The position numbers and the translations under genes are program-made. Shown here in pieces: positions 29,986-42,203 of a DNA stretch of 60,409 nt. Source of the stretch: a virus; the IMG/VR virus record IMGVR_UViG_3300044514_000014, positions 1-60,409 of that record; one strand, written 5' to 3'. The stretch's first letter is position 1. Each line of letters begins with the position of its first letter. Below the pieces are notes generated by a model. It searched no databases. It had not been told where the DNA came from and was given only the letters and a program-made list of their open reading frames with translations.

Positions 29986-30180
29986 ATGACCCCTGACGAA
30001 ATCCGAAGGATGTACAAGCATTTTATAAATCTGCTTGCGAAGATAACTGAAAAGTATTATACGGGCGTTCAAAAAAACTCAGATGGCACATTTACCCATA
30101 CATGGGATTTTTCTAAGGCAGAAGATGAAATCGACCTGCCTGCCGAGCGGCTGGAGCTTCTAGAAAGCAAGGACGAGTGA
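29986..30180 (+). CDS. Hypothetical protein
   Basis: ORF that is GTGA-coupled to the SDR gene. Confidence 0.45.
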   Translation: MTPDEIRRMYKHFINLLAKITEKYYTGVQKNSDGTFTHTWDFSKAEDEIDLPAERLELLESKDE

Positions 30181-30869
30181 TCGCCCTTGTCACAGGCGGC
30201 TCACGCGGCATCGGCGCGGCGTGCGTCCGGGCGTTGAAGGACGCGGGGCATACTGTCGCGGTCGTGGCGCGGGGGAAAGAATCGCCGGAATGTGATTTGT
30301 ATATTCAAGCAGACTTGTCGAAAGAGGGCCGTTCTCGTATTATTCACAAAGTTATCGCGGAACTAGGCGGGCTGGATATTCTCGTCAACAATGCGGGGTG
30401 CCAGTATCACGCCCCTGTTGTGGGCTACGAACCCTTTAGATGGGATTATCAGATTGAGGTAATGCTAACCGCCCCGTTCCACTTATCGAGAGCGGCGGCT
30501 ATTCACATGCTCACCCACGGCGGCGGGCATATCGTCAACATCCTGTCTACGTCTGCCTTCCAGGGAGCGCGCAATATATCCGGCTACGTAGCCGCGAAGC
30601 ACGGGCTGCTCGGCCTCACGCGGGCGATGGCAATCGAGCTTGCGCCGCTGATACACGTCAACGCTATTGCACCCGGACTCGTGGACACGGCCATGACCGC
30701 CTCGTACATCCCCTTACAGAGGCGCGAACTGCTGGAGAGCATCACGCCCGCGGGCAGGTTCGGCAAGCCAGATGAGATCGCTGGGGCGCTGATGTACTTA
30801 ATTCAAAGCGAGTTTGTGTATGGTCAAACCATCGTGGTCGATGGAGGATGGCTGGCAAAGAATGGCTAA
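30177..30869 (+). CDS. Short-chain dehydrogenase/reductase (FabG-like ketoreductase)
   Basis: TGGSRGIG, NNAG, YVAAKHG (YxxxK), IHVNAIAPG. Confidence 0.9.
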   Translation: MIALVTGGSRGIGAACVRALKDAGHTVAVVARGKESPECDLYIQADLSKEGRSRIIHKVIAELGGLDILVNNAGCQYHAPVVGYEPFRWDYQIEVMLTAPFHLSRAAAIHMLTHGGGHIVNILSTSAFQGARNISGYVAAKHGLLGLTRAMAIELAPLIHVNAIAPGLVDTAMTASYIPLQRRELLESITPAGRFGKPDEIAGALMYLIQSEFVYGQTIVVDGGWLAKNG

Positions 30870-31086
30870 ACTAATCGGCGGGCCTCTACATAATCAGATT
30901 ATTGAGATTCACGGTATGCAGTCTGAAAAATTTATAATTCCAGTTTTCCCCAATGACCGCACACCCAAACAATGTGTACGCCACATGAATAAAGCGGTGT
31001 ACAAGCGTACCAGAATTGTGAGGGGGGGGGAAATTGTATACAGGTTTATTTATGGATATTACGATATTAGGTATTTGTATGGCTAA
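30862..31086 (+). CDS. Hypothetical protein containing a G9 homopolymer tract
   Basis: ATG 30862 overlaps the end of the SDR gene. G9 run at 31022-31030. Confidence 0.4.
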   Translation: MAKLIGGPLHNQIIEIHGMQSEKFIIPVFPNDRTPKQCVRHMNKAVYKRTRIVRGGEIVYRFIYGYYDIRYLYG

Positions 31087-32083
31087 AATTATCGAAGCTA
31101 AAGACCTGCGCGGCGAGCGGCGGGAACGTCTCATAGACGCGGTTCCCCTGCCCGCGCCGTGGACGATGTTCATTGACTGCGGGAATCCGTGTAACGCCCG
31201 ATGCGTCTATTGTCCGACAGGTGACACAGAATTACTCCGCAAGATCGGGCGCAAGAATGTATTGATGTCCTGGGAATTGTTTACTAAAGTAGTAGGTGAT
31301 ATAAAAGCCTTTCCGCGACGACTTAAGCGCGTGAACAGCTATAAAGACGGAGAACCTCTTATCCACCCCCGTTTTACCGACATGATGCGCTATCTCAAAG
31401 ACGCCGATGTCACCGAACAGATATGGACGAAAACGAATGGATTGGCACTCAAGCCAGAGATAAACGCCCGTCTCGTCACTTGCGGCTTGGATATGATTGG
31501 CGTATCAGTCCAGCACGTACACGCGCAAGGCTTCTATGATATCGCCCGCGTGCGGATTGACTATGAGGAATACCGCGCCAACGTGCTAGACCTGTACCAG
31601 CGGAGCCGGGATACCGGCGTGAAAATCAGTACCAAAATCGCCGACGTGGGATTTAGCGACGCGGACAAACAAAAGTTTCTTGATGACTTTAGCGACCGCT
31701 GCGATTTCATCGCGATAGAAGGTTTGCATGGTTGGTCTGCCAGCGATGTCAAAGATTGGCGATTGGGAACAGATAATAGTTTCGACGGCAATCTGCGAAC
31801 CAATAAAATCGCCTGTCCATTGGTGTTGTACATGCTGACGGTAAATAGCAACGGCAATATTTCAATATGCAATGATGATGCCTTCCATTGGCACAAGATC
31901 GGCAACGCGAACAATGAAACCCTGATGGATATATGGCACGGGAATAGGTTACGGGAATTTCGACTAATGCACCTTACTGGACGCAAGCATGAAAACCCGG
32001 CTTGCTCTACGTGTGATTATGTTAAAGTTTTACCCGATAGCATTGACAGCGACCGCGAAGAGTATGCAAGGCGATTGAGATGA
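31079..32083 (+). CDS. Radical SAM enzyme with a SPASM/twitch-like C-terminal Cys cluster
   Basis: CNARCVYCP (CxxxCxxC). C-terminus CPLV...ICNDD...NPACSTCDY. Confidence 0.8.
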   Translation: MAKIIEAKDLRGERRERLIDAVPLPAPWTMFIDCGNPCNARCVYCPTGDTELLRKIGRKNVLMSWELFTKVVGDIKAFPRRLKRVNSYKDGEPLIHPRFTDMMRYLKDADVTEQIWTKTNGLALKPEINARLVTCGLDMIGVSVQHVHAQGFYDIARVRIDYEEYRANVLDLYQRSRDTGVKISTKIADVGFSDADKQKFLDDFSDRCDFIAIEGLHGWSASDVKDWRLGTDNSFDGNLRTNKIACPLVLYMLTVNSNGNISICNDDAFHWHKIGNANNETLMDIWHGNRLREFRLMHLTGRKHENPACSTCDYVKVLPDSIDSDREEYARRLR

Positions 32084-32166
32084 TGTATAATACAGTGAGA
32101 CTATATAAATGCTCCTGCGACGTGTTAGCGTCCAGGAGCGTGACCAAAGTACATGGAGGTACTTCG

Positions 32167-32400
32167 ATGTCCAGAATAATACCATTAACACGGGGGAAAG
32201 CGGCGTTAGTCGATGACGCCGACTATGAATATCTAAATCAATTCAAATGGCATTGTAATACAGGCTACGCCTACCGATCGCTACTAAGGGGTAATCGTGG
32301 ACATATAGCCATGCACCGTGAACTTATGGGCGACCCTCAAGGCATGGAGGCTGCAAAGTATTACGGAGAATTTGCGCGAGTAGAGAGGATAAGGAAATGA
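32167..32400 (+). CDS. HNH-type homing endonuclease remnant (catalytic core deleted)
   Basis: N-terminus LTRGKAALVDDADYEYLNQFKWH..GYAYR..MHRELMG and C-terminus AAKYYGEFARV match the two ends of phage HNH/AP2-type endonucleases. The HNH (DHxNGxxLDNRxxNLR) segment is absent. Confidence 0.55.
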   Translation: MSRIIPLTRGKAALVDDADYEYLNQFKWHCNTGYAYRSLLRGNRGHIAMHRELMGDPQGMEAAKYYGEFARVERIRK

Positions 32401-32993
32401 AAAAGGTTATTTCTCTATTCAAGAGAGACTATAAAGGTAATCATCAAGTGTTTGATGAAATTGTTCCCGGCGCTGAATGGGTTGTGAGCGGCGAAGGCAT
32501 CGCAACTATAAAGATTGACGGGACATCCTGTCTTGTTCGTGATGGCTTTTTATTCAAGCGTTATGACGCAAAGAAGGGGCGCACGCCGCCTGCCGGATTT
32601 GAACCAGCGCAAGACCCCGACCCCATTACAGGACATTGGCCGGGGTGGGTGCCTGTTACAGACAGAAAAGAGGATAATTACCATCGCGAAGCGTTTGAGA
32701 ATTGCAAAAACCTTCCAAATGGTACTTATGAGCTAATAGGAGAAAAGATACAACGCAACCCGTACAACATAAGCGGGCATGTCTTAGTTCTTCACGGCGA
32801 ATGGCGTTTTAAGAACGACCCGCCCCGAACTTTTGATGAGTTAAAGGCGTGGTTTGAAACAAATGAAAAGTTTGAGGGGATTGTATGGCATCGCGCAGAC
32901 GGTGAAATGGTGAAAATCAAGCGGCGTGATTTTGGGCTGGCTTGGCCGCCAGCGGTTGTAGTTGCATCGCGAAACATTCGCAGAAAAGGTTGA
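32397..32993 (+). CDS. Nucleotidyltransferase of the ATP-dependent RNA/DNA ligase type (KxDG)
   Basis: IATIKIDGTSCLV (motif I KxDG), YELIGEKIQ, VLHG..., KIKRRDF (motif V-like). Confidence 0.5.
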   Translation: MKKVISLFKRDYKGNHQVFDEIVPGAEWVVSGEGIATIKIDGTSCLVRDGFLFKRYDAKKGRTPPAGFEPAQDPDPITGHWPGWVPVTDRKEDNYHREAFENCKNLPNGTYELIGEKIQRNPYNISGHVLVLHGEWRFKNDPPRTFDELKAWFETNEKFEGIVWHRADGEMVKIKRRDFGLAWPPAVVVASRNIRRKG

Positions 32994-32996
32994 AAG

Positions 32997-33191
32997 ATGG
33001 ATAAAAATCCGATGTTTGAGGCGTACGCAAAAGAAAAAGAGGGAGAATACAAAAACAACGCGATTTCAATCGCCCACGGCATGAAGATGCAATACGATGC
33101 TTTTGTTGAAGAGGGATTTACACACGAACAGGCGCTATCTTTGGTTAACTCGATAGTAGCGACCTTTATACAAAACGCATCAAGGAAATGA
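32997..33191 (+). CDS. Hypothetical protein
   Basis: ORF on the coding strand. Confidence 0.45.
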   Translation: MDKNPMFEAYAKEKEGEYKNNAISIAHGMKMQYDAFVEEGFTHEQALSLVNSIVATFIQNASRK

Positions 33192-33207
33192 CGGACAAGG
33201 AAGTAAT

Positions 33208-34239
33208 ATGAGACCCTGCCCCGTTTGTGAGAACGAAGAATTAATGATTAACGCTGGGCGCACCGAAGTGTTCCGCATGGCTTACCGCATCCCGGACGGC
33301 TGGCCGCTGCCGTCTGAGATCGTCTGGTTTACCTGCGACGCTTGCGGGATGTTTTTTGGCGACGGCGATTTCAATCAGGCCATGCTCAACGAATACTATA
33401 CCAAGTATTACGGCTACGGCGTCAACAACCCAACCAACATCGAGCGGCTAAAAATGGACGCAGTAATGATCAGTGGCCTGGCGAAGCATGAGAGGGAGGC
33501 CGTCATCGTGGACTTCGGCGGTAATGGTGACGATGGCAGGAGCATCATCGTTGATTCGTTGCACAGCAGGGGATATGTCAACGCCGAGTCGGTGGGCGCG
33601 GGCGAGGCCCTCCCCTACCCCTCTACTATCATCTACGCCTCACACGTCGTTGAGCATGTATACGACCTGCCTGAAACAATGAAGAGGATCAGCGGCGCGC
33701 TTGCGCCTGACGGTCTGCTTATCATCGATGGGCCGGATGCGACGGGATTATTGCAACGCTGGAAAATGCCGATCCTGGATTTCAATACGAAGCACATCAA
33801 CCATTTCACGCTGAGAAATTATCTTGATTTGGGACACAGGTACGGCTTTGAATTGGTTGACGTGCGGAAGTACGAGATGGAGCACGCACCCGCATACCAG
33901 CTGCATTTCAGGAGGCTTGACGTGGCGCGGGCGTCCATGAAGCATGTAACGGAAAATATATCCGTCCGCGTGGATAGGATGCGAACGCTTGCGGGGCTGC
34001 CGCTCAACGTGTGGGGAATGGGGGATATTACGTGGCATCTGCTGTCTCAGGTGGATCTCAATATTCTGGATTACATTGATAACGACCCCGCCATGCGCGG
34101 GGCGACGTATAGGGGTAAGCCGATATTGGAGCGTCCGACAAACGACAAGCCGATACTGATAATGAGTCAAGGCCAGCGGCAGCGGCTGATTGAGAATATA
34201 CGAAAGGCTGGGATTGATAATCCCTTGATAGAAACGTAA
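33208..34239 (+). CDS. SAM-dependent methyltransferase with an N-terminal Cys4 ribbon (NDP-hexose C-methyltransferase-like architecture)
   Basis: CPVC...CDAC; VIVDFGGNGDDG (motif I); a C-terminal extra domain as in TylCIII-type enzymes (from memory). Confidence 0.6.
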   Translation: MRPCPVCENEELMINAGRTEVFRMAYRIPDGWPLPSEIVWFTCDACGMFFGDGDFNQAMLNEYYTKYYGYGVNNPTNIERLKMDAVMISGLAKHEREAVIVDFGGNGDDGRSIIVDSLHSRGYVNAESVGAGEALPYPSTIIYASHVVEHVYDLPETMKRISGALAPDGLLIIDGPDATGLLQRWKMPILDFNTKHINHFTLRNYLDLGHRYGFELVDVRKYEMEHAPAYQLHFRRLDVARASMKHVTENISVRVDRMRTLAGLPLNVWGMGDITWHLLSQVDLNILDYIDNDPAMRGATYRGKPILERPTNDKPILIMSQGQRQRLIENIRKAGIDNPLIET

Positions 34240-34754
34240 TGAGAGTAGCAGATGCTATCTTTGAACGACTGAAAAGCGAAGTTGACACTGTTTTTTTCTT
34301 GCCCGGCGGTGGCTCCGGGCCGCTGGTGGATGCGCTTGGCGCGTCGGGATTGCGCGCCGTGTGCTGTCTGCACGAACAGGGAGCCGGGTTTGCAGCGGTC
34401 GGGTATGCACAATATCACGGTTTCGGCGTGTGCCTTGTGACGAGCGGGCCGGGCGTGACTAACGCCATGACCCCCTGCCTTGCTGCGTGGGTGGATAGCG
34501 TCGCTTGCCTGTTCATATCAGGGCAGGTCATGGTCAAGTGGCTGGCTCTGGATGGGATGCGCTCGCGCGGAACGCAGGAGGGGCCGACAATTGCGATGGT
34601 GAGACCGATAACAAAGTATGTGGCGCAACCACAAAGCGCGGCGGAGGCAATGGCGGAACTTGAAAAATGTATCACCATAGCAAAGGAAGGGCGAGCAGGC
34701 GGAACGTGGCTCGATATTCCGCAAGATATACAAGGGGCAAGCTATGATGTATAA
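34239..34754 (+). CDS. TPP-dependent enzyme, N-terminal (Pyr) domain fragment (ALS/YerE-like)
   Basis: VFFLPGGG..HEQGAGFAAVGYA..VCLVTSGPGVTNAMT..A..DSVACLFISGQV..WLDIPQDIQ matches the TPP_enzyme_N pattern. Confidence 0.85.
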   Translation: MRVADAIFERLKSEVDTVFFLPGGGSGPLVDALGASGLRAVCCLHEQGAGFAAVGYAQYHGFGVCLVTSGPGVTNAMTPCLAAWVDSVACLFISGQVMVKWLALDGMRSRGTQEGPTIAMVRPITKYVAQPQSAAEAMAELEKCITIAKEGRAGGTWLDIPQDIQGASYDV

Positions 34755-34833
34755 TAGAACACATAATCTAAACGTTGCTCCCGCGATGCGGATACATCCG
34801 GGAGCGTGGCCGAACCTAAACAGGAGATTCGAC

Positions 34834-35730
34834 ATGAGCATTGTAACAGAAAACACACCGGGGGAAATGAAACAGTTTGGGGTTTACTCTATAATCTTCC
34901 ATTCTAGGCGCGGTGATATGGTTTATATCGGCTCGACTGCTCAAGATTTTGAGCAGCGTCTATATGAGCATCTGTCTTATGCAAGAAGAAACAAACACGG
35001 TAATAAATACTTTCAAAACCTCTGGAATAAATATCAAACCTTCGATTTCAAGATTGTTGAAATCTGCTTAGACCGGGAGACGGTAGCCGTTCGAGAACAG
35101 TGGCATATAGAGAAAATTGACAGATCACAATTAATCAATAATCGCCCTGCTAAAAAGTCTAACAGGTTTCAAGTTATCATTTCAGAAGAAACGCGCCGAA
35201 AGCAGTCGGATGCAGCAAAAATAAGGGCGAGTAATCCTGCTGAACGCGAAAGACTGCGGTCTATAAGACTTTCTCAATGTCCAATATCAGATGAAGCCAG
35301 ACAGAAAATCTCCGAGGCGTCTAAAAGGTATATGAACTCTCCCGAGGCGAAAGAGAAATATTCGCTATTAATGAAGGGAAGGGACAGGGGTGAAGAGTTT
35401 AGGGAAAAATTACGAAAGGCAAACTCTGGCAAAGCTCCCGCCCCTCAGACAATTGAGGCGGTTCGTCGTGCTCATATTGGGAAAAAGGCGTCGGATGAAA
35501 CCAGAAGGAAGATGTCTGAATCTCACAAAAGAAGATTTGCAGAAAATCCCGAATTGCTCGCCAAGGCCTTATGTAATATCAGGGGGCGTGTGATAACCGA
35601 CGAAACAAGAGCGAAACTGAGAAAGGCGAGCACGGGCAAGCGCCATACAGAAGAGACGAAAGAAAAATTGCGTCAAGCTACACTGGCTCACTACACAAAG
35701 AAGAGAGAAGAAGAATGTATCGACCGTTGA
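34834..35730 (+). CDS. GIY-YIG homing endonuclease with NUMOD3-type repeats
   Basis: GVYSI..VYIGST..R..H...E..N is a GIY-YIG core. At least four (S/T)(D/E)ETRxK repeats. Low GC. ATG 34834 follows AGGAGA. Confidence 0.85.
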   Translation: MSIVTENTPGEMKQFGVYSIIFHSRRGDMVYIGSTAQDFEQRLYEHLSYARRNKHGNKYFQNLWNKYQTFDFKIVEICLDRETVAVREQWHIEKIDRSQLINNRPAKKSNRFQVIISEETRRKQSDAAKIRASNPAERERLRSIRLSQCPISDEARQKISEASKRYMNSPEAKEKYSLLMKGRDRGEEFREKLRKANSGKAPAPQTIEAVRRAHIGKKASDETRRKMSESHKRRFAENPELLAKALCNIRGRVITDETRAKLRKASTGKRHTEETKEKLRQATLAHYTKKREEECIDR

Positions 35731-36851
35731 TTTTGCTTGGGAACGGGGTCAGAAATAACCCAAAATTGATTGAGCATTTATGTAGCCTAAATATACCTAT
35801 CGCTACAACATGGATGGGGGCGGATTTATTGCCTGAGGATTGTCCTGTATGGATTGGCAGACCTGGTTTGTTTGGACAAAGATCGTGCAACATCGCCCAG
35901 CAGAAAGCGACGCATCTCTACTGCTTCGGTGCTCGCTTGGACGGCGAACAAGTCGCCTATGACTATGACCGCTTCGCGCCGAATGCGGAGATATATATTT
36001 ATGATATAGACCCCGCAGAGGCGCAGAAGTTCCCGAAGCATTACCACGTTTCGCAGACCCTTGACTCCAGAGACGACATTGATTTTCTTCCGGCTCTTGA
36101 CCCGCCTCATCGTGACTGGCTCAACTGGTGCAAGGCACTCTATCACCGATTCCGGCCTGAATTGGACGGAGGACAGGAGGCGGGGGACGGAGGTGACGAA
36201 TATTTCGTTGACCCATTCACGTTCACGCGGCTCCTGCATGATCACAGCCAGTCTGATGACGTATTCGCTATCGGCTCATCAGGCAACGCGCCCACGGTGT
36301 TCTTCCAGGCGTACAAGGTCAAGCAGGGGCAGCGGATCTCCAACGTCTGCACGATAGGCGCGATGGGCGCGGACATCCCCATGGCCATGGGCTCTGCGCT
36401 GGCGTCCGGGCGGCGAACCATCTGCGTGACGGGCGACGGCGGCTTTGCGATGAACGCGCAGGAACTTGAAACGATACGCAGGCTGAGACTGCCGATCATC
36501 TTTTTTGTGATGTCCAACGGCGGGTATAACTCGATCCGCGTTGGTCAGCTTGCGCGCTTCGGGCGTGTGACAGGCGCAAACCCCGCAAGCGGGCTTATCC
36601 TGCCGAGCATTGAAGCGATTGCGGAGGCGTACCGTCTCTGCTACATGCCCCTGCACGGGCGAGACCTGCCGAACTTCACCCGATGCTTCGGCGTTGCGCC
36701 GATGGTCGTGGAAGTGTTCGTAGATCCCGAATGGCAGCAATTGCCGCGCGTGATGGCAAGTGGAAACCCAATCAAGACGGATAACATGGAGAATATGTAT
36801 CCATATTTACCTGAGGATGAATTGAAAGAGATTATGGAGTGGGGCGGGTAG
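35715..36851 (+). CDS. TPP-dependent enzyme, central + C-terminal (PP) domain fragment (ALS/YerE-like)
   Basis: RPLILLGNG..; GAMGADIPMAMGSA..VTGDGGFAMNAQELETI..LPIIFFVMSNGGY is the TPP-binding GDG-N motif. Confidence 0.85.
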   Translation: MYRPLILLGNGVRNNPKLIEHLCSLNIPIATTWMGADLLPEDCPVWIGRPGLFGQRSCNIAQQKATHLYCFGARLDGEQVAYDYDRFAPNAEIYIYDIDPAEAQKFPKHYHVSQTLDSRDDIDFLPALDPPHRDWLNWCKALYHRFRPELDGGQEAGDGGDEYFVDPFTFTRLLHDHSQSDDVFAIGSSGNAPTVFFQAYKVKQGQRISNVCTIGAMGADIPMAMGSALASGRRTICVTGDGGFAMNAQELETIRRLRLPIIFFVMSNGGYNSIRVGQLARFGRVTGANPASGLILPSIEAIAEAYRLCYMPLHGRDLPNFTRCFGVAPMVVEVFVDPEWQQLPRVMASGNPIKTDNMENMYPYLPEDELKEIMEWGG

Positions 36852-36876
36852 TCGCCACGCTCTAGAAAGGTTTGAA

Positions 36877-37050
36877 ATGGCACTAACAATAGTTTTGGGT
36901 TTGATGATTTTCTTGCCTTTGGTTGTTGGTAGTTACATGCACTATGCTTTGGGCATTACATCGGGAATGGATATTGCCGCGACAATTTTGTTGTATGTCG
37001 TGGAAATGGCATCGTTTTATTCAGTGATGGTAAAGCGCCCTCAAAAGTAA
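36877..37050 (+). CDS. 57-aa two-TM membrane protein
   Basis: Below the track cutoff. Hydrophobic. RBS AAAGG. Confidence 0.4.
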   Translation: MALTIVLGLMIFLPLVVGSYMHYALGITSGMDIAATILLYVVEMASFYSVMVKRPQK

Positions 37051-37156
37051 CTATTATATTTTAGCCTTACGCGTTGTCGTAGGCAACAAAAAACTAAAAT
37101 GTATCAACCTCAGTGTATCGTTGTGTACCTGTTACTTGATAAAGGTAACGGTATAT

Positions 37157-38290
37157 ATGATGACAGTCCCTATTTCCGGGCAAGTGACCGGCAAAGAGGA
37201 AGCAGATAACGTGATGGAAGTTGCGAACTCGCAGAGTTACGGCGGCTTCATCTGGACCAATCGCTTCGAGCGCGGCTTCGCCCGCTTCATGGGTGCTCGT
37301 GAGGCGATCCTGTGTAACAGCGGCTCATCCGCAAACCTGATCGCATTGGCGGCGCTGGAACTGCCGAAGGGCTCGGAAGTCATTACCACCGCGGTGAACT
37401 TCCCTACGACGGTAAACTGCATTATTCAGCTTGGTCTAGTGCCGGTGTTCGTGGATAGTGATCCGAAAACATTGAACGCCAGCCGAATAGAGGATATTTA
37501 TGAGGCGTGGCCGACAAAAGTAAGAGCAATAATAATGGCTCATGCTCTTGGAAATCCGGTTTATATTCCGCCCTCTGATTTCCCGGTTATCGAAGATTGC
37601 TGTGATGCTGTAGGTTCTACGATCAACGGGCAGATGGTTGGTCGTCGCGGCATAATATCCACCGTCTCATTCTACCCGGCGCATCACATGACGATGGGCG
37701 AAGGTGGTGCGGTGCTGACCGATAGCCCGCAGTTGAGGAAGATTATCGAGAGCTACCGCGATTGGGGCCGAGACTGCTGGTGCGAGCCGGGGAAGGATAA
37801 TACATGCGGGACACGGTTTGATAAGGAGTACGATCATAAATACACATACTCTAGAATTGGTTACAACCTCAAAGTTTCCGACTTCCAGGCTGCTGTGGGG
37901 GTTGCTCAGTTGGACAGACTGGCTGGTTTCGTCGAAAAGCGGAGAGACAATTGGAAATATTTACGCGCTGGGTTGGATGGATTACCGCTTGATTTTATTG
38001 AGGCGACGCCAAACAGCGATCCGTCATGGTTTGGTTTTGCATTTCTCAGTCCAGAACGGAATAAACTGGCGAAATATCTGGATAGTAAAGGGGTTGGGTG
38101 CCGTCCTGTCATGGGTGGAAATTTACTCAGACAACCTGCCTATAAAGATATAGAGCACCGCGTCATTGGTAATCTGGACGGGGCTGATAGAATTCATCGA
38201 GAGGGGCTTTGGGTAGGAGTATTCCCTGGCATCACCGAAGAAATGAGAGAGTACCAGGTTGAGACTATCAGGGCATATTTCAATGGATAA
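37157..38290 (+). CDS. rfbH: CDP-4-keto-6-deoxy-D-glucose 3-dehydrase (E1; RfbH/DdhC/AscC family)
   Basis: NSGSSANL; SFYPAHHMTMGEGGAV (His in place of the PLP lysine); RDWGRDCWCEPGKDNTCGTRF Cys cluster. These are hallmarks of E1 as I recall them. Confidence 0.85.
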   Translation: MMTVPISGQVTGKEEADNVMEVANSQSYGGFIWTNRFERGFARFMGAREAILCNSGSSANLIALAALELPKGSEVITTAVNFPTTVNCIIQLGLVPVFVDSDPKTLNASRIEDIYEAWPTKVRAIIMAHALGNPVYIPPSDFPVIEDCCDAVGSTINGQMVGRRGIISTVSFYPAHHMTMGEGGAVLTDSPQLRKIIESYRDWGRDCWCEPGKDNTCGTRFDKEYDHKYTYSRIGYNLKVSDFQAAVGVAQLDRLAGFVEKRRDNWKYLRAGLDGLPLDFIEATPNSDPSWFGFAFLSPERNKLAKYLDSKGVGCRPVMGGNLLRQPAYKDIEHRVIGNLDGADRIHREGLWVGVFPGITEEMREYQVETIRAYFNG

Positions 38291-38954
38291 AGTTTTGGTC
38301 ACAGGCGGAACGGGCTTTGTCGGTCATTGGTTAAGGCAGACTAAGCCCGATAAATTTATTCATTATTGGCTTAGTCACGCCGATTACGCACTAACAAATT
38401 GGCATACTGTCAAATGGGATTACATTGTTCACCTTGCGAATATTTCTCCCGCGCTAGTTATTGAATGCGCCAAACAAACAAACGCCCGCCTGCTATACTG
38501 CTCCTCCGGCGCGGTCTACGACCAGGACACGGAGTACGCCAATGACAAACGGCGCTGGGAGCGGGAATGTCTCGACAGCGGCGTGGATGTAGTGATTGCA
38601 AGGCTGTTCACTTTCTACGGCGAGCGCCTGGATGATGGCAAGGCTTACACTCAATTCACCCGTGCGGCGAAGGCAGGCGAGCCGTTACGAGTCTGGGGCG
38701 ACGGGTCTTGTATCCGCTCATACATGTATGGCGCAGAACTTGGCCGCTGGCTATGGGCGATCCTGCTACGGGGCAAGAGCGGGCAGGCGTATGACGTAGG
38801 GAGTACGGAGCCGGTCACGATGCTGGAACTGGCGCGCAGGGTCATCCGCCATTATAAGAGCAATTCGGGGATCATTATGGAGCCAGACCACCCCGTCCCG
38901 ATGCCGTACTACATGCCGCGCGACACGGCGAAAACGCGGAGGTTATTAGAATGA
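38283..38954 (+). CDS. Short NAD-dependent epimerase/dehydratase-family (extended SDR) protein
   Basis: VLVTGGTGFVGHWL Rossmann motif; YANDKR (YxxxK-like). Confidence 0.7.
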   Translation: MDKVLVTGGTGFVGHWLRQTKPDKFIHYWLSHADYALTNWHTVKWDYIVHLANISPALVIECAKQTNARLLYCSSGAVYDQDTEYANDKRRWERECLDSGVDVVIARLFTFYGERLDDGKAYTQFTRAAKAGEPLRVWGDGSCIRSYMYGAELGRWLWAILLRGKSGQAYDVGSTEPVTMLELARRVIRHYKSNSGIIMEPDHPVPMPYYMPRDTAKTRRLLE

Positions 38955-39962: not shown

Positions 39963-40048
39963 TTCTGGCGGGCAGAAATGCCGAAGTAAGTGCTGGCTAA
40001 GTATTCATTGTAGATCTAGCCAGACCTACTAATATAACCTTACGTGAT

Positions 40049-40096
40049 AGCCGGTTGTCCTTGCTCCGAAATGGAGCCAGGGCAACCGGCTTTTTG
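40049..40096 (+). terminator. Intrinsic terminator between the promoter and the capsid gene
   Basis: AGCCGGTTG..GCTCC-GAAAT-GGAGC..CAACCGGCT followed by T5. It ends 23 nt before ATG 40119. Confidence 0.75.
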
Positions 40097-40118
40097 CGTT
40101 ATATACGCAGAGGGTGAA

Positions 40119-42203
40119 ATGCCAAACGTTTCAGAATACGAAAATCAAGATGACTGGATGGGCGCATGTATGCCAGCCATGATGGAAGAGGGGAAAGAGC
40201 AAGACGAAGCCGCCGCCGCGTGCGCGTCCATGTGGGGAGAGAAAAAGTCATTCTACGATATGTCGATAGAAGATGCAGTCAAGCACTTCCTGAAAGTCGG
40301 CGCGCGGCACACGCGTAAAGAAGTGGATGCGTTCCAGACCGTACACGACATTATGGTAGATAACGGCGCTGAGTGTGAAATGCCAGAGAAGGAAATGTAC
40401 GGGGGTAACATGCCGATGATGGAGGGGAAATCGCTGGATGAGGAATACATCTACCCCGGCGATGCAGTCAAAGCCGTGTCACTGGACGGCGGCGCGGTCA
40501 AATTAGGGGGTTATCTGATCAGTTTCAGGGACTCTGAGAACACAGACCTGGCGGGCGATTACTTCACAAAAAAAGCCAACTACGGCGATGCGACACAGTC
40601 TGACGTATGGTTCAACCACCGTTTGCCGATCCGCATCAAGAAGCACAATGTTGAAGTGAAATATACCGAGCCGCTATCCAACAAAGCATCACTCACCATT
40701 GATGATGTAGGGGTATTTGCTGAGGTGGTGATCGAAGCGCGCAATGAATACGAAAAAACAATCGCCGAATTGGGGCTTGCGGGGAAATTAGCCTGGTCAT
40801 CTGGCACAGCTTCGCACCTTGTAGACCGCAAAGCGATCAAGAATGGCGTGTGGGAAATCACGCGCTGGCCTCTTGGGCTGGATGCGTCGCTCACCCCCAC
40901 TCCGGCAGAATACCGCAAAACCAACCAGATACTACCGATCAAATCGTTACTAACTTCCCATACGGCGTTGCCCGTTGAGGAGGATAACCAAACCAAACCT
41001 ACCAATCAACCTATTACCACACAAAGGGAGAACATCATGGAAGACGAAATCAAATACGCCGTAGATAAGGCGGTCGCCGACGCTCTGCAAGAGCGCGAAG
41101 CGAAATCCCAGGCGGAAGCGCAGAAGGCTTCAGAATTGAAGGCTGCGGAAGACGCCGGATACAAGAAGGCCGTTGAGGAATTGAAGGAGCACGGGCCGCA
41201 GACGTTCTACCACTCCACCGAAAAGGCCGACGATGACAATGACGGTATCGGCGCTTTCAAGTCCTGGCTCAAGACTGGACAGGAAAATCAAGGGCTCATC
41301 CGCCCTGACTCGTCCTTCGACAATATCAAAGCGGGCAAAGCTGCCTGGAACATCACAACCGGAGCTTCCGGTGGGTTCTTGGTTCCTGACCCCCTGTATA
41401 ACCAGATTATCGCCAAGCGTGACATCATGTCGTGGGCGCGGCAGGTTCCTTGCACGTTCTTGACGACCCCCTCCGATCACCTGTTAGTCCCGCGTGAGAA
41501 TACCAGTCTGACTGATTTCGTTCTGACGGCTGAGGCTGGAAACTACGACGAGAATGAGGGCACGGTATCACAGAAAGACCTCATCTTGTACAAGTACACC
41601 AAACTCACGAAGATGAACGAAGAATTTCTTATGTACAACGGTACGAATTGGGAAGCCTGGTTCACCAACGCACTGGGACGCGCAGTTGCGAACACTGAAA
41701 ATACTGTTTTCACCACAGGCACTGGCACGTCACAACCTGAGGGTATTGTGACCGGCGCGACGGTTGCAAATACGACCGCCACGACCGACATCATTCTACC
41801 GTCCGAACTGTCTGGCCTTATCGGTTATCTCGGAGGCGGATACAACGTCCCGAGTGAGGCCGCCATGCTCATGGCGAACGTGACTAAGTGGTATCTGAAA
41901 GGCAGTGGTGGAACGTCCGTGGTTCCATTTGCTTATGTCCAGACCCCGCAGGATGGCGATTTCTTCGGCTACAAGGCCGTCATCGACGATGACCTTGAAC
42001 CATATACCACGGCTTCGGCCAAGTGTGTCGTGTTCGGCAACTTCAGCTACTACGCAGTGGTGGAAAAGCCGGGCATGATCATACAGCGCAATCCTTACCT
42101 GTACATGGCGACCGGGCAGATCGGCATCTTTGCCAGCATCTTCCGCGGTGGCGGAGTGCTTCAGAGCGAAGCATTCTACTATCTGACCAACAAGTCCAGC
42201 TAA
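40119..42203 (+). CDS. Prohead protease/scaffold-like N-terminal region fused to an HK97-fold major capsid protein
   Basis: C-terminal half: GASGGFLVPDP...TGTGTSQPEGIVTG is typical of HK97-type MCPs. The central region is a Glu/Lys coiled coil. ATG 40119 follows GAGGGTG. Confidence 0.75.
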   Translation: MPNVSEYENQDDWMGACMPAMMEEGKEQDEAAAACASMWGEKKSFYDMSIEDAVKHFLKVGARHTRKEVDAFQTVHDIMVDNGAECEMPEKEMYGGNMPMMEGKSLDEEYIYPGDAVKAVSLDGGAVKLGGYLISFRDSENTDLAGDYFTKKANYGDATQSDVWFNHRLPIRIKKHNVEVKYTEPLSNKASLTIDDVGVFAEVVIEARNEYEKTIAELGLAGKLAWSSGTASHLVDRKAIKNGVWEITRWPLGLDASLTPTPAEYRKTNQILPIKSLLTSHTALPVEEDNQTKPTNQPITTQRENIMEDEIKYAVDKAVADALQEREAKSQAEAQKASELKAAEDAGYKKAVEELKEHGPQTFYHSTEKADDDNDGIGAFKSWLKTGQENQGLIRPDSSFDNIKAGKAAWNITTGASGGFLVPDPLYNQIIAKRDIMSWARQVPCTFLTTPSDHLLVPRENTSLTDFVLTAEAGNYDENEGTVSQKDLILYKYTKLTKMNEEFLMYNGTNWEAWFTNALGRAVANTENTVFTTGTGTSQPEGIVTGATVANTTATTDIILPSELSGLIGYLGGGYNVPSEAAMLMANVTKWYLKGSGGTSVVPFAYVQTPQDGDFFGYKAVIDDDLEPYTTASAKCVVFGNFSYYAVVEKPGMIIQRNPYLYMATGQIGIFASIFRGGGVLQSEAFYYLTNKSS

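What the first reader, a model, noticed from the sequence alone, without database searches (positions are those of the whole stretch)
34239..36851. TPP-enzyme gene split into two separately translated ORFs by a free-standing GIY-YIG/NUMOD homing endonuclease gene
**Seen in the sequence.**
- ORF 34239..34754 encodes only the N-terminal Pyr domain of an ALS/YerE-like enzyme and ends ...WLDIPQDIQGASYDV.
- ORF 35715..36851 begins MYRPLILLGNG, which is the start of the central domain, and carries the TPP-binding GDG motif.
- Between them lies a low-GC GIY-YIG endonuclease gene (34834..35730).
- The endonuclease stop overlaps the downstream start by 16 nt.
- Its RBS is preceded by the hairpin GCTCCCG...CGGGAGC.
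- Only about 80 nt of non-coding sequence is available, too little for a group I intron core.

**Established knowledge.** Homing endonuclease insertion can create functional genes-in-pieces, as with the Aeromonas phage Aeh1 nrdA gene split by mobE.

**Inference.** The enzyme is probably reconstituted from two polypeptides cut at the interdomain linker. This is a recent mobile-element invasion of the sugar cluster.
Basis: partly seen in the sequence, partly recalled or inferred. Interest (0 to 1): 0.7.

Follow-up and report, generated by a model that had tools for sequence, protein, structure and literature searches.

The report
Homing endonuclease inside already-split enzyme gene
A selfish DNA-cutting-enzyme gene sits exactly between the two genes of a phage sugar-branching enzyme, but relatives lacking it show the enzyme was already encoded in two pieces, so this is an ordinary mobile-gene insertion, not a gene-splitting event.

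Summary
In detail: a 171-aa Pyr-domain ORF (34239-34754), a GIY-YIG/NUMOD3 endonuclease ORF (34834-35730) and a 378-aa M+C-domain ORF (35715-36851) lie as described, with the 16-nt overlap, the hairpin and the low GC.

The causal reading does not hold. The closest relatives lack the endonuclease (HEG) and still encode two ORFs, whose stop and start overlap in ATGTATAA. Of the 120 best-scoring protein homologues listed (50-100% identity), 118 are M+C-only. Of 41 informative viral loci, 36 are split at this linker, and so are some bacterial polysaccharide loci. Fused relatives carry about 35 linker residues that the whole split family lacks.

The HEG cassette (960 nt, 34755-35714) is inserted exactly at the stop/start overlap. 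It keeps the upstream stop, supplies a second ATGTAT as the downstream start, and ends inside the downstream gene. Its three closest homologues (52-58% identity) occupy the same position directly upstream of the M+C gene in other phages (in two of them between TPP_N and M+C), and a second GIY-YIG lineage does too. The first ~180 nt of the downstream gene look like a co-conversion tract.

No intron, intein or pseudogene is involved. Verdict: a new member of a known kind, a free-standing "Seg-like" endonuclease that invaded an already split gene (precedent: Aeromonas phage 25 gene 43). Interest is modest. The naturally split YerE-like ThDP enzyme family is the more notable by-product.

The parts
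34239..34754 (+). Gene for the Pyr (N-terminal) subunit of a two-piece YerE-like ThDP enzyme, 171 aa, with the catalytic Glu in LHEQGAG.
   Evidence: PF02776, E 7e-30. 86% aa identity to the 169-aa N gene of L001. dN/dS 0.16-0.20.
34747..34754 (+). Retained ancestral stop/start overlap ATGTATAA. The TAA is the stop of the N gene. The ATG was the start of the M+C gene in HEG-less alleles and is now in frame with the endonuclease ORF.
   Evidence: Junction alignment with L001/L003.
34755..35714 (+). 960-nt endonuclease cassette, an insertion relative to HEG-less alleles, bounded by ATGTAT copies at 34747-52 and 35715-20.
   Evidence: Alignment A1. Gap = 960 nt in the window against -8 nt in L001/L003. 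GC 0.44.
34750..34755 (+). TATAAT (-10-like hexamer) formed at the left junction. It is present just 5' of the endonuclease in every HEG-bearing allele examined. Its function is untested.
   Evidence: Promoter scan. Junction table. L053 and L016 sequences.
34777..34805 (+). Stable hairpin upstream of the endonuclease RBS (outer stem GCTCCCG/CGGGAGC, inner stem GATG/CATC).
   Evidence: -19.2 kcal/mol, z -2.45. The L005 orthologue folds at -22.6 kcal/mol, z -4.0, with a compensatory change GACG/CGTC.
34822..34826 (+). AGGAG Shine-Dalgarno sequence of the endonuclease gene, 7 nt before ATG 34834.
   Evidence: Sequence. Conserved as AGGAGG in L005.
34834..35730 (+). Free-standing GIY-YIG/NUMOD3 homing endonuclease gene, 298 aa. 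A possible N-extended form starts at 34747.
   Evidence: Pfam, PHROG and NCBIfam matches. Alignment to the I-TevI catalytic domain 1mk0. Motifs invariant in 4 junction-specific homologues.
35715..36851 (+). Gene for the M (TH3) + C (PP) subunit, 378 aa, with the GDG...N ThDP-binding motif. Its start overlaps the endonuclease stop by 16 nt.
   Evidence: PF00205 and PF02775. 88% aa identity to P0002/L003. dN/dS 0.10. Invariant P4, G9, G11, R13 and P16 confirm the start at 35715.
35715..35895 (+). Diverged, lower-GC3 tract at the 5' end of the M+C gene. It is a probable co-conversion tract acquired together with the endonuclease.
   Evidence: 52-65% nt identity to L003 here against 84-97% downstream. 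GC3 is 0.43 here against 0.53-0.90 downstream. An 18-nt run TTGATTGAGCATTTATGT is shared with HEG-bearing L005 but not with L001/L003.
37121..38290 (+). RfbH-like (E1-type) 3-dehydrase/aminotransferase-fold gene. This is pathway context that supports a YerE-like role.
   Evidence: NCBIfam NF011936 RfbH, 456.8 bits, above the 423-bit cut-off.

Best explanation
The window is a tailed-phage contig carrying a nucleotide-sugar cluster: SDR, radical-SAM/SPASM, methyltransferase, ThDP enzyme, RfbH-like dehydrase and a short SDR, just upstream of the capsid gene.

In this phage group the YerE-like ThDP-dependent sugar-branching enzyme is naturally encoded by two translationally coupled genes. One encodes the Pyr subunit (~170 aa) and the other the M+PP subunit (~375 aa). 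They are cut at the interdomain linker, and their stop and start overlap (ATGTATAA or ATGA).

A free-standing GIY-YIG/NUMOD3 homing endonuclease gene of the T4 'Seg' type has been inserted exactly at that overlap. The 960-nt cassette leaves the upstream stop intact, provides a second ATGTAT as the start of the downstream gene, and lets the endonuclease ORF terminate 16 nt inside the downstream gene. As a result both subunits are still made, and the downstream one is probably translated by termination-reinitiation coupling to the endonuclease (inferred).

The endonuclease most likely spreads by 'intronless homing': it cleaves HEG-less alleles of this locus during co-infection, and repair copies the cassette plus flanking DNA (inferred). 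The ~180-nt diverged tract at the 5' end of the M+C gene, and the mosaic ancestry of the two halves, are the footprint of this.

Shown here: the anatomy, the insertion polymorphism, the pre-existing split, recurrence at the same position, purifying selection, and the absence of an intron. Inferred: endonuclease activity, the cleavage site, translational coupling, and assembly and activity of the two-piece enzyme.
For: 1. HEG-less alleles are already split. L001/L002 (80% aa identity) and L003 (88%) have the N gene (169 aa) and the M+C gene (378 aa) in different frames, overlapping by 8 nt: GAT GTA TAA / ATG TAT AAG.

2. The split is family-wide.
- Of the 120 best-scoring homologues listed, 118 are 332-397 aa without PF02776. 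Only P0113 and P0119 (40-41% identity) are full length.
- 36 of 41 informative IMG/VR loci are split at N|M.
- 19 of 80 cellular loci are split at the same linker. This was verified in L063 and L079.

3. Fused relatives have a linker-plus-helix of about 30-37 aa that is missing in all split forms (also the PDB alignments).

4. The insertion is precise. The left junction is GATGTATAA|TAGAAC and the right junction is AGAAGA|ATGTATCGA.

5. The endonuclease lineage is specific for this position.
- The three closest endonuclease homologues among 5.8 billion proteins (P0122 52%, P0123 58%, P0124 56%) all lie immediately upstream of an M+C gene. Two of them lie between TPP_N and M+C.
- P0125 (38%) follows a TPP_N gene and has the junction GATGTATAATAGAG.
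- L016 carries a different GIY-YIG (34% identity) at the same junction.
- 27 more distant relatives in IMG/VR are not next to TPP genes.

6. The endonuclease appears intact. The GIY, YIG, R, H, E and N positions align with I-TevI and are invariant among the four homologues, and pN is about 0.3 against pS about 0.85.

7. There is a co-conversion or mosaic signature.

8. Both halves are under purifying selection, with dN/dS 0.10-0.20.

9. No Rfam intron model matches, even at E <= 10.

10. The YerE-like assignment is supported by the best PDB hit JanthE 8rph (E 8e-67) and by the RfbH-like neighbour.

11. There is a literature precedent for a seg gene invading an already split gene, and for co-conversion (PMC2988022).
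Against: - No experimental data exist. Endonuclease activity, its cleavage site and homing are inferred from family membership and distribution only.
- The co-conversion tract lies in a region that is also somewhat more variable among HEG-less alleles (L001 vs L003 is 58-70% identical over nt 31-150), and the donor lineage has not been sampled.
- The endonuclease's divergence (52-58%) roughly tracks the divergence of the host gene, so vertical descent with repeated loss cannot be separated from horizontal homing.
- In L004 the endonuclease follows a 4,6-dehydratase gene rather than TPP_N, so the cassette is tied to the M+C gene more than to the junction as such.
- The 6-7-nt duplication at the cassette ends is not what GIY-YIG cleavage (2-nt overhangs) would be expected to produce.
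Confidence: 0.85

Rival explanations
1. One reading: a contiguous TPP-enzyme gene was recently split into two pieces by insertion of this endonuclease gene (the Aeh1 nrdA/mobE type).
For: The endonuclease lies exactly between the two domain-encoding ORFs, and the ORFs are in the same frame. Fused homologues exist at 39-43% identity (L042, P0113, P0119). HEG-caused splits are documented in T4-like phages (PMC2988022).
Against: The nearest HEG-less alleles (80-88% identity) are already split, with overlapping stop and start in different frames. The split is conserved across 36 of 41 viral loci and down to 26% identity, and it occurs in bacteria. About 35 linker residues are missing in all split forms, whether or not they carry the endonuclease.
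Confidence: 0.03
2. Deep-time version of the same idea: the family-wide fission at domain linkers was originally caused by an ancient endonuclease or other mobile-gene insertion that was later lost from most lineages, leaving overlapping stop/start scars. The present endonuclease would be a descendant or a re-invader.
For: - Two GIY-YIG lineages and five different small low-GC ORFs occupy the N|M junction.
- The M|C junction of a sister clade holds MT-A70, SpoU and Lar-like genes.
- Three fission patterns (N|MC, NM|C, N|M|C) all fall at domain linkers.
- The endonuclease lineage is old at this position, at 52-58% identity.
Against: Bacterial polysaccharide loci have the same split with no mobile gene between the pieces. 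Insertion at gene boundaries is expected once a gene is already split, so the hot spot may be a consequence rather than a cause. No lineage shows an intermediate in which the endonuclease interrupts a fused gene that still has its linker.
Confidence: 0.12
3. The endonuclease is encoded in a group I intron (or an intein), and the two ORFs are exons (or exteins) joined after splicing.
For: GIY-YIG/NUMOD3 enzymes are often intron-encoded. NCBIfam's nearest model is 'group I intron endonuclease' (43.9 bits, below its 56-bit cut-off). The two ORFs are in the same frame.
Against: No Rfam intron hit appears at E <= 10 over 34000-37000. Only 79 nt are non-coding on the 5' side and none on the 3' side. 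HEG-less alleles have no intron and still encode two ORFs. Each piece keeps its own stop or start codon. There is no Hint/intein domain.
Confidence: 0.01
4. The interrupted enzyme is a decaying pseudogene, or the endonuclease is a dead remnant.
For: About 35 residues present in fused relatives are absent. No activity data exist.
Against: Both halves have dN/dS of 0.10-0.20 against several relatives. The catalytic Glu, the GDG...N motif and 70+ invariant columns are retained. The endonuclease ORF is intact, with its catalytic motifs and pN well below pS.
Confidence: 0.03

Closest known systems
Free-standing GIY-YIG 'Seg' homing endonucleases of T4-like phages (SegA-G; intronless homing)
   Same: GIY-YIG catalytic domain plus NUMOD3 DNA-binding modules. 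Located between genes rather than in an intron. Present or absent among related phages at one locus. Flanking-marker co-conversion signature. Own RBS, with RNA structure nearby (PMC2988022).
   Different: Only distantly related in sequence (I-TevI domain E 0.015; SegE model below cut-off for the L016 enzyme). The host is an uncultured non-T4 phage. The insertion is exactly in a stop/start overlap, with the endonuclease ORF running into the downstream gene. Activity and cleavage site are untested.
seg43(25) at the split DNA polymerase gene 43A/43B of Aeromonas phage 25
   Same: A seg-type endonuclease gene lies between two halves of an enzyme gene that is also split in a relative without the endonuclease, so the endonuclease probably invaded an already split gene (PMC2988022).
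   Different: A different enzyme and phage group. Here the pre-existing split is documented in dozens of HEG-less relatives and in bacteria, so the order of events is much clearer.
mobE in nrdA of Aeromonas phage Aeh1, and mobA in T4 topoisomerase gene 39/60 (HEG-caused 'genes in pieces')
   Same: An endonuclease gene sits between two separately translated parts of an enzyme that must reassemble.
   Different: In those cases related phages have a contiguous gene (PMC2988022). Here the HEG-less relatives are already split, and the endonuclease is GIY-YIG rather than HNH.
YerE-like ThDP-dependent carboligases (YpYerE, ErwE, JanthE/8rph, PpYerE), which make branched-chain sugars
   Same: Best solved-structure hit is JanthE (E 8e-67; identified in PMC12188165). 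Pyr, TH3 and PP domains with the catalytic Glu and the GDG motif. Neighbour genes fit a 3,6-dideoxy-4-keto sugar pathway (RfbH-like above cut-off; pathway described in PMC12247030).
   Different: The characterised YerE-like enzymes are single polypeptides of about 570-620 aa. This one is two polypeptides lacking the ~35-aa Pyr-TH3 linker, is phage-encoded, and is only about 35-40% identical. Substrate and product are unknown.
ThDP enzymes with PYR and PP domains on separate chains (split-gene transketolases, sulfopyruvate decarboxylase ComD/E, E1 alpha/beta)
   Same: The PYR and PP domains are supplied by different polypeptides that assemble into an active oligomer. The split-gene transketolase was reconstituted as alpha2beta2 (PMC7661550 abstract).
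   Different: Those belong to other ThDP superfamilies. Here a decarboxylase-superfamily (ALS/YerE-type) enzyme is split as PYR | TH3-PP, and as PYR-TH3 | PP or in three pieces in sister clades. I found no description of this arrangement.

Membership tests
GIY-YIG homing endonuclease, free-standing (Seg-like) | GIY-YIG catalytic domain with the conserved Tyr, Tyr, Arg, His, Glu and Asn positions. | tested here: met
   PF01541, 35.6 bits (cut-off 22.6). Alignment to I-TevI 1mk0 places GVY, VYIG, R, H and RE at the catalytic positions. These positions are invariant in 4 homologues.
GIY-YIG homing endonuclease, free-standing (Seg-like) | Modular C-terminal DNA-binding region (NUMOD3 or similar). 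| tested here: met
   PF07460, 41.7 bits (cut-off 20.4). Repeated S-ETR-K-S motifs appear in the alignment.
GIY-YIG homing endonuclease, free-standing (Seg-like) | Not embedded in an intron or intein; lies between genes. | tested here: met
   No Rfam intron at E <= 10. Flanked by a retained stop and a start codon. HEG-less alleles have adjacent genes.
GIY-YIG homing endonuclease, free-standing (Seg-like) | Presence/absence polymorphism at one locus among related genomes. | tested here: met
   Window, L005, L006/L036, L004 and L053 (lineage A) and L016 (lineage B) carry an endonuclease. 28 IMG/VR loci plus L001-L003 do not.
GIY-YIG homing endonuclease, free-standing (Seg-like) | Co-conversion of flanking sequence with the endonuclease gene. 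| tested here: inconclusive
   There is a sharp identity step at about nt 180 of the M+C gene against L003 (52-65% rising to 84-97%), and the two halves have mosaic ancestry. However, the donor is unsampled and the region is somewhat variable in general.
GIY-YIG homing endonuclease, free-standing (Seg-like) | Site-specific cleavage of the HEG-less allele and super-Mendelian inheritance in mixed infection. | not testable with these tools
   Needs purified protein, or crosses of an uncultured phage.
HEG-caused 'gene in pieces' (Aeh1 nrdA-mobE type) | Relatives lacking the endonuclease have one contiguous gene. | tested here: not met
   HEG-less L001/L002/L003, and 28 IMG/VR loci with directly adjacent genes, have two ORFs.
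Group I intron-encoded endonuclease | A recognisable intron core (P1-P9) flanks the ORF, and the exons join into one reading frame. | tested here: not met
   No Rfam hit. There are 79 nt on the 5' side and 0 nt on the 3' side of the ORF. Joined ORFs would lack about 35 conserved-position residues. HEG-less alleles are two ORFs in different frames.
YerE-like ThDP-dependent enzyme (decarboxylase superfamily) | PYR domain with catalytic Glu, TH3/M domain, and PP domain with GDG-X(24-27)-N. | tested here: met
   PF02776, PF00205 and PF02775. HEQ Glu46 is invariant. D241, N268 and G270 are invariant.
YerE-like ThDP-dependent enzyme (decarboxylase superfamily) | Closest characterised relatives are YerE-like, and the genomic context supplies a 4-keto-3,6-dideoxy sugar. 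| tested here: met
   Top PDB hit is JanthE 8rph. RfbH-like neighbour is above the NCBIfam cut-off. A 4,6-dehydratase sits next to the locus in L004.
YerE-like ThDP-dependent enzyme (decarboxylase superfamily) | All three domains on a single polypeptide. | tested here: not met
   Two ORFs here and throughout the phage clade. No NCBIfam model reaches its cut-off.
YerE-like ThDP-dependent enzyme (decarboxylase superfamily) | Carboligation of a 2-keto acid donor onto a keto-sugar acceptor. | not testable with these tools
   Requires an enzyme assay of the co-expressed subunits.

The most novel reading that the evidence does not exclude
Gene fission of this phage ThDP enzyme at its domain linkers (N|MC, NM|C, N|M|C) was itself produced by ancient insertions of homing endonucleases or other selfish genes that were later lost. 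The surviving endonuclease lineage has specialised on the resulting stop/start overlap and hijacks its translational coupling: the retained ancestral ATG at 34747 is in frame with the endonuclease, and the endonuclease stop re-couples the downstream subunit. This would make mobile genes a general driver and maintainer of 'enzymes in pieces' in phages.
Probability: 0.12. Interest if true: 0.6.

Novelty: new member of a known kind. Interest (0 to 1): 0.35.

Why it matters
The finding corrects an attractive but wrong reading. This is not a new case of a homing endonuclease breaking a gene. It is a clean, well-controlled case of an endonuclease settling in the boundary of a gene that was already in two pieces, while preserving the expression signals of both neighbours. 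The comparison set (HEG-less and HEG-bearing alleles, two endonuclease lineages, and small 'moron' ORFs at the same junction) gives candidate homing-site sequences for a new GIY-YIG specificity.

The by-product may be more useful. It is a large, conserved family of YerE-like sugar-branching ThDP enzymes that work as separate Pyr and TH3-PP subunits, or in other piece combinations, in phages and some gut and rumen bacteria. That is relevant to ThDP-enzyme engineering, because it shows natural split points. It is also relevant to phage-encoded branched-sugar pathways located next to capsid genes.

Tried and rejected
- Megablast of 33200-38300 against 50,697 GenBank phage records gave no match, so there is no annotated close relative.
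- An Rfam scan at E <= 10 over 34000-37000 gave only chance lncRNA/snoRNA hits and no intron.
- A PDB sequence search with the endonuclease gave only a weak I-TevI catalytic-domain match (E 0.015). I used it only for motif register.
- The context of P0126 (35% endonuclease homologue, L054) had uninformative flanks. The ORF downstream of the endonuclease in L053 is not an M+C gene.
- An IMG/VR scan with the endonuclease profile found 27 distant relatives (<=34% identity), none next to TPP genes. That is useful as a negative control for site specificity but added no new alleles.
- I considered programmed frameshifting that would fuse N and M+C in HEG-less alleles. I rejected it because fused relatives need about 35 extra residues that are absent, and because the HEG-bearing alleles separate the ORFs by 0.7-1 kb while both remain under purifying selection.
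- I considered the TATAAT at the junction as a promoter. The scan finds no more promoter-like sites than shuffles do (5 found against 4.0 +/- 1.4 expected), so this stays an open note.
- Literature searches for a phage or split YerE-type enzyme found nothing.
- I ran no structure prediction. It would not change the verdict.

Full report
**1. The observation**

- ORF 34239-34754 (171 aa) matches only the N-terminal (Pyr) domain of ThDP enzymes (PF02776, E 7e-30).
- ORF 35715-36851 (378 aa) matches the central and C-terminal (PP) domains (PF00205, PF02775).
- ORF 34834-35730 (298 aa) matches GIY-YIG and NUMOD3 above Pfam's cut-offs and PHROG 314 'homing endonuclease'.

The other details also hold. 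The overlap between the endonuclease stop and the downstream start is 16 nt. The spacer is 79 nt. The hairpin at 34777-34805 folds at -19.2 kcal/mol with z = -2.45. An AGGAG lies 7 nt before the ATG. Endonuclease GC is 0.436, against 0.515 for the window and about 0.6 in the flanks.

**2. What the joined enzyme lacks**

I joined the two halves and searched the PDB. The best hits are JanthE (8rph, E 8e-67) and 5ahk, an entry deposited as acetolactate synthase II large subunit that, from my own recollection, is the YerE homologue PpYerE. In both, the alignment jumps over about 33 residues between '...DIPxDIQ' and 'RPxIxxGNG'. Aligning with fused relatives (L042, P0113, P0119, and the N+M-fused L043/L049) shows a linker plus the first helix of the M domain, about 30-37 aa, that is encoded nowhere in the window. 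It is a deletion-type break, not a simple cut.

**3. The split predates the endonuclease**

A search of 5.8 billion proteins with the joined sequence returned 120 listed hits. Of these, 118 (50-100% identity) are 332-397 aa and carry only the M and C domains. Only two, at 40-41% identity, are full length.

Contigs encoding the nearest relatives (P0004 at 80% and P0002 at 88%; loci L001-L003) carry the same cluster: SDR, radical-SAM/SPASM, methyltransferase, TPP_N, TPP_M+C, DegT-like, epimerase, capsid. They have no endonuclease, and the enzyme is still two ORFs, in different frames, overlapping by 8 nt...GAT GTA TAA / ATG TAT AAG....

A profile scan of IMG/VR gave 46 loci.

| Class | Number of loci |
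|---|---|
| N gene directly abutting the next piece (4- or 8-nt ATGA or ATGnATAA overlaps in most), down to 26% identity | 28 |
| Endonuclease at the junction | 2 |
| Small low-GC ORF (54-97 aa) at the junction | 6 |
| N fused to M (one fully fused; four split instead between M and C) | 5 |
| Lacking upstream DNA (uninformative) | 5 |

One of the 28 (L045) is in three pieces.

In cellular genomes the best matches are <=35% identical. Of those, 58 are fused, but 19 are split at the same linker. I verified this by ORF inspection in a Saccharofermentans MAG and a Bacteroidales MAG, where the genes sit in polysaccharide loci. The two-piece architecture is therefore an old, widespread natural form of this enzyme family and was not caused by the endonuclease in the window.

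**4. Anatomy of the insertion**

The left junction in the window keeps the ancestral GATGTATAA (34746-34754). This retains the stop of the N gene and, within it, the former start codon of the M+C gene. The cassette then begins TAGAAC... The right junction reads ...AGAAGA|ATGTATCGACCG, so a second ATGTAT supplies the start of the M+C gene. The insert is 960 nt (34755-35714).

The endonuclease ORF has no stop of its own inside the cassette. It terminates at an out-of-frame TGA 16 nt into the M+C gene. The same design is seen in every other HEG-bearing allele, with overlaps of 10 nt (L005, where the true M+C start is ATG 6345 and not the called 6510), 29 nt (L006, L004) and 8 nt (L016). The ancestral N-to-M+C coupling thus seems to be replaced by endonuclease-to-M+C coupling. 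This is an inference from the geometry.

**5. An endonuclease lineage tied to this position**

The three closest homologues of the endonuclease (52-58% identity) all lie directly upstream of an M+C gene. In L005 and L006 they lie between TPP_N and M+C. In L004 the endonuclease follows a 4,6-dehydratase gene. P0125 (38% identity) follows a TPP_N gene and has the same GATGTATAATAGA junction. L016 has a different GIY-YIG/NUMOD3 enzyme (34% identity) at the same junction.

The 27 more distant relatives in IMG/VR are not next to TPP genes.

HEG-bearing alleles are scattered among HEG-less ones. The nearest M+C relative of each is HEG-less or tied with one.

The catalytic motifs are invariant among the four lineage members and align with those of I-TevI. 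Non-synonymous divergence (about 0.3) is far below synonymous divergence (about 0.85, saturated). The enzyme is therefore probably active.

**6. Footprints of mobility**

Against L003, the window's M+C gene is 52-65% identical over its first ~180 nt and 84-97% identical afterwards. GC3 drops to 0.43 in that tract, and it shares an 18-nt run with HEG-bearing L005 that HEG-less L001/L003 lack. The N gene is closest to L001 (86% aa), while the M+C gene is closest to L003 (88% aa). These breakpoints around the cassette are what co-conversion during endonuclease-driven repair would produce (mechanism as reviewed in PMC2988022). The donor is unsampled and the region is moderately variable anyway, so I rate this as suggestive.

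**7. Alternatives excluded**

- *Intron.* No Rfam model hits at E <= 10. There is no room for an intron core. HEG-less alleles have no intron and are two ORFs.
- *Intein.* There is no Hint domain, and the stop and start codons are retained.
- *Pseudogene.* dN/dS is 0.10-0.20 for both halves, with the catalytic Glu and the GDG...N motif conserved.
- *Frameshift fusion.* It could not supply the missing linker, and it is impossible in the HEG-bearing alleles.

**8. What the enzyme probably does**

The best solved relative is JanthE, a YerE-like ketone-accepting carboligase. YerE-type enzymes branch CDP-4-keto-3,6-dideoxyglucose (PMC12247030). The neighbouring gene at 37121-38290 passes NCBI's curated RfbH cut-off, and RfbH is the 3-dehydrase that makes such 3,6-dideoxy-4-keto sugars (established knowledge). 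The cluster therefore probably builds a C-branched deoxysugar.

ThDP active sites form between a PYR domain and a PP domain of different chains, so a PYR subunit plus a TH3-PP subunit can in principle assemble. A reconstituted split-gene transketolase is a precedent (PMC7661550 abstract).

**9. Comparison and novelty**

The element works like, and passes the testable criteria for, a free-standing Seg-like GIY-YIG homing endonuclease. It fails the defining criterion of an HEG-caused 'gene in pieces', because its relatives without the endonuclease are not contiguous. The closest precedent is seg43 of Aeromonas phage 25, for which the review notes that the endonuclease may have invaded an already split gene. 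I file it as a new member of a known kind.

I found no description of a split PYR | TH3-PP arrangement in a decarboxylase-superfamily enzyme, nor of its variants (PYR-TH3 | PP, or three pieces), in the literature searched.

**10. Open points**

- The origin of the 6-7-nt duplication at the cassette ends.
- The TATAAT that precedes the endonuclease in every HEG-bearing allele, even in L004.
- The stop-free, in-frame link from the ancestral ATG to the endonuclease ORF in the window, L005 and L053.
- The function of the hairpin, which is conserved with one compensatory pair in L005.

Noticed in passing
window 30177-38954 and 40044-42203: The sugar cluster (SDR, radical-SAM/SPASM, methyltransferase, two-piece YerE-like enzyme, RfbH-like dehydrase above the NCBIfam cut-off, short SDR) sits directly upstream of the capsid gene. 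The Phage_capsid domain occupies only residues 443-715 of that 719-aa product. This suggests a phage-encoded pathway for a C-branched 3,6-dideoxy sugar. Its target (capsid, DNA or host surface) is unknown.
   Followed up: partly
L043, L044, L046, L049, L050 (N+M | C) and L045 (N | M | C): A low-GC phage clade splits the same enzyme at the second linker (between M and C), or at both linkers. Unrelated genes lie between the M and C pieces: MT-A70 methyltransferase (L043), SpoU methylase (L050), and a Lar-like protein plus others (L046).
   Followed up: partly
L021/L022, L024, L032, L033, L034 (N|MC junction): Five different small low-GC ORFs (54-97 aa, no Pfam match for the two tested) are inserted at the same junction that the endonuclease uses. 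Each ends overlapping the M+C start. The junction is a general hot spot for 'moron'-like inserts.
   Followed up: partly
L063 2490-4089; L079 2419-4089 (bacterial MAGs): Saccharofermentans, other Clostridia and Bacteroidales genomes carry an N (177-179 aa) | M+C (370 aa) split of a related ThDP enzyme in polysaccharide loci, with no mobile gene between the pieces.
   Followed up: partly
L004 2-1473: In this contig the lineage-A endonuclease follows a GDP-mannose/dTDP-glucose 4,6-dehydratase-like gene instead of TPP_N, yet it keeps TATAAT just upstream and still overlaps the M+C start. The TPP_N gene must be elsewhere or lost.
   Followed up: no
window 32397-32993: An ORF with an RNA ligase 1 (RLIG1)-like domain lies between the radical-SAM and methyltransferase genes, where L001 has only a 68-aa ORF and L003 has nothing. 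This is another variable insert in the cluster.
   Followed up: no
window 35715-35813: The public gene call for the M+C gene (P0001, 345 aa) starts at Met34 and omits invariant residues P4, G9, G11, R13 and P16. The overlap with the endonuclease ORF probably misled the gene caller. The L005 M+C gene is likewise under-called (322 aa instead of about 377 aa).
   Followed up: yes
L008 and L010 (IMGVR_UViG_3300025030_000076, 80,305 nt): One viral contig holds two diverged copies of the whole locus (88% and 80% identical to the window's M+C). This is probably a chimeric or concatenated assembly of two related phages.
   Followed up: no
window 34747-34833; L005 5396-5482; L053 262-279: The retained ancestral ATG is in frame with the endonuclease ORF with no stop (29, 29 and 5 codons), and the spacer length is identical (87 nt) in the window and L005. 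An N-extended endonuclease made by coupling to the N gene cannot be excluded.
   Followed up: partly
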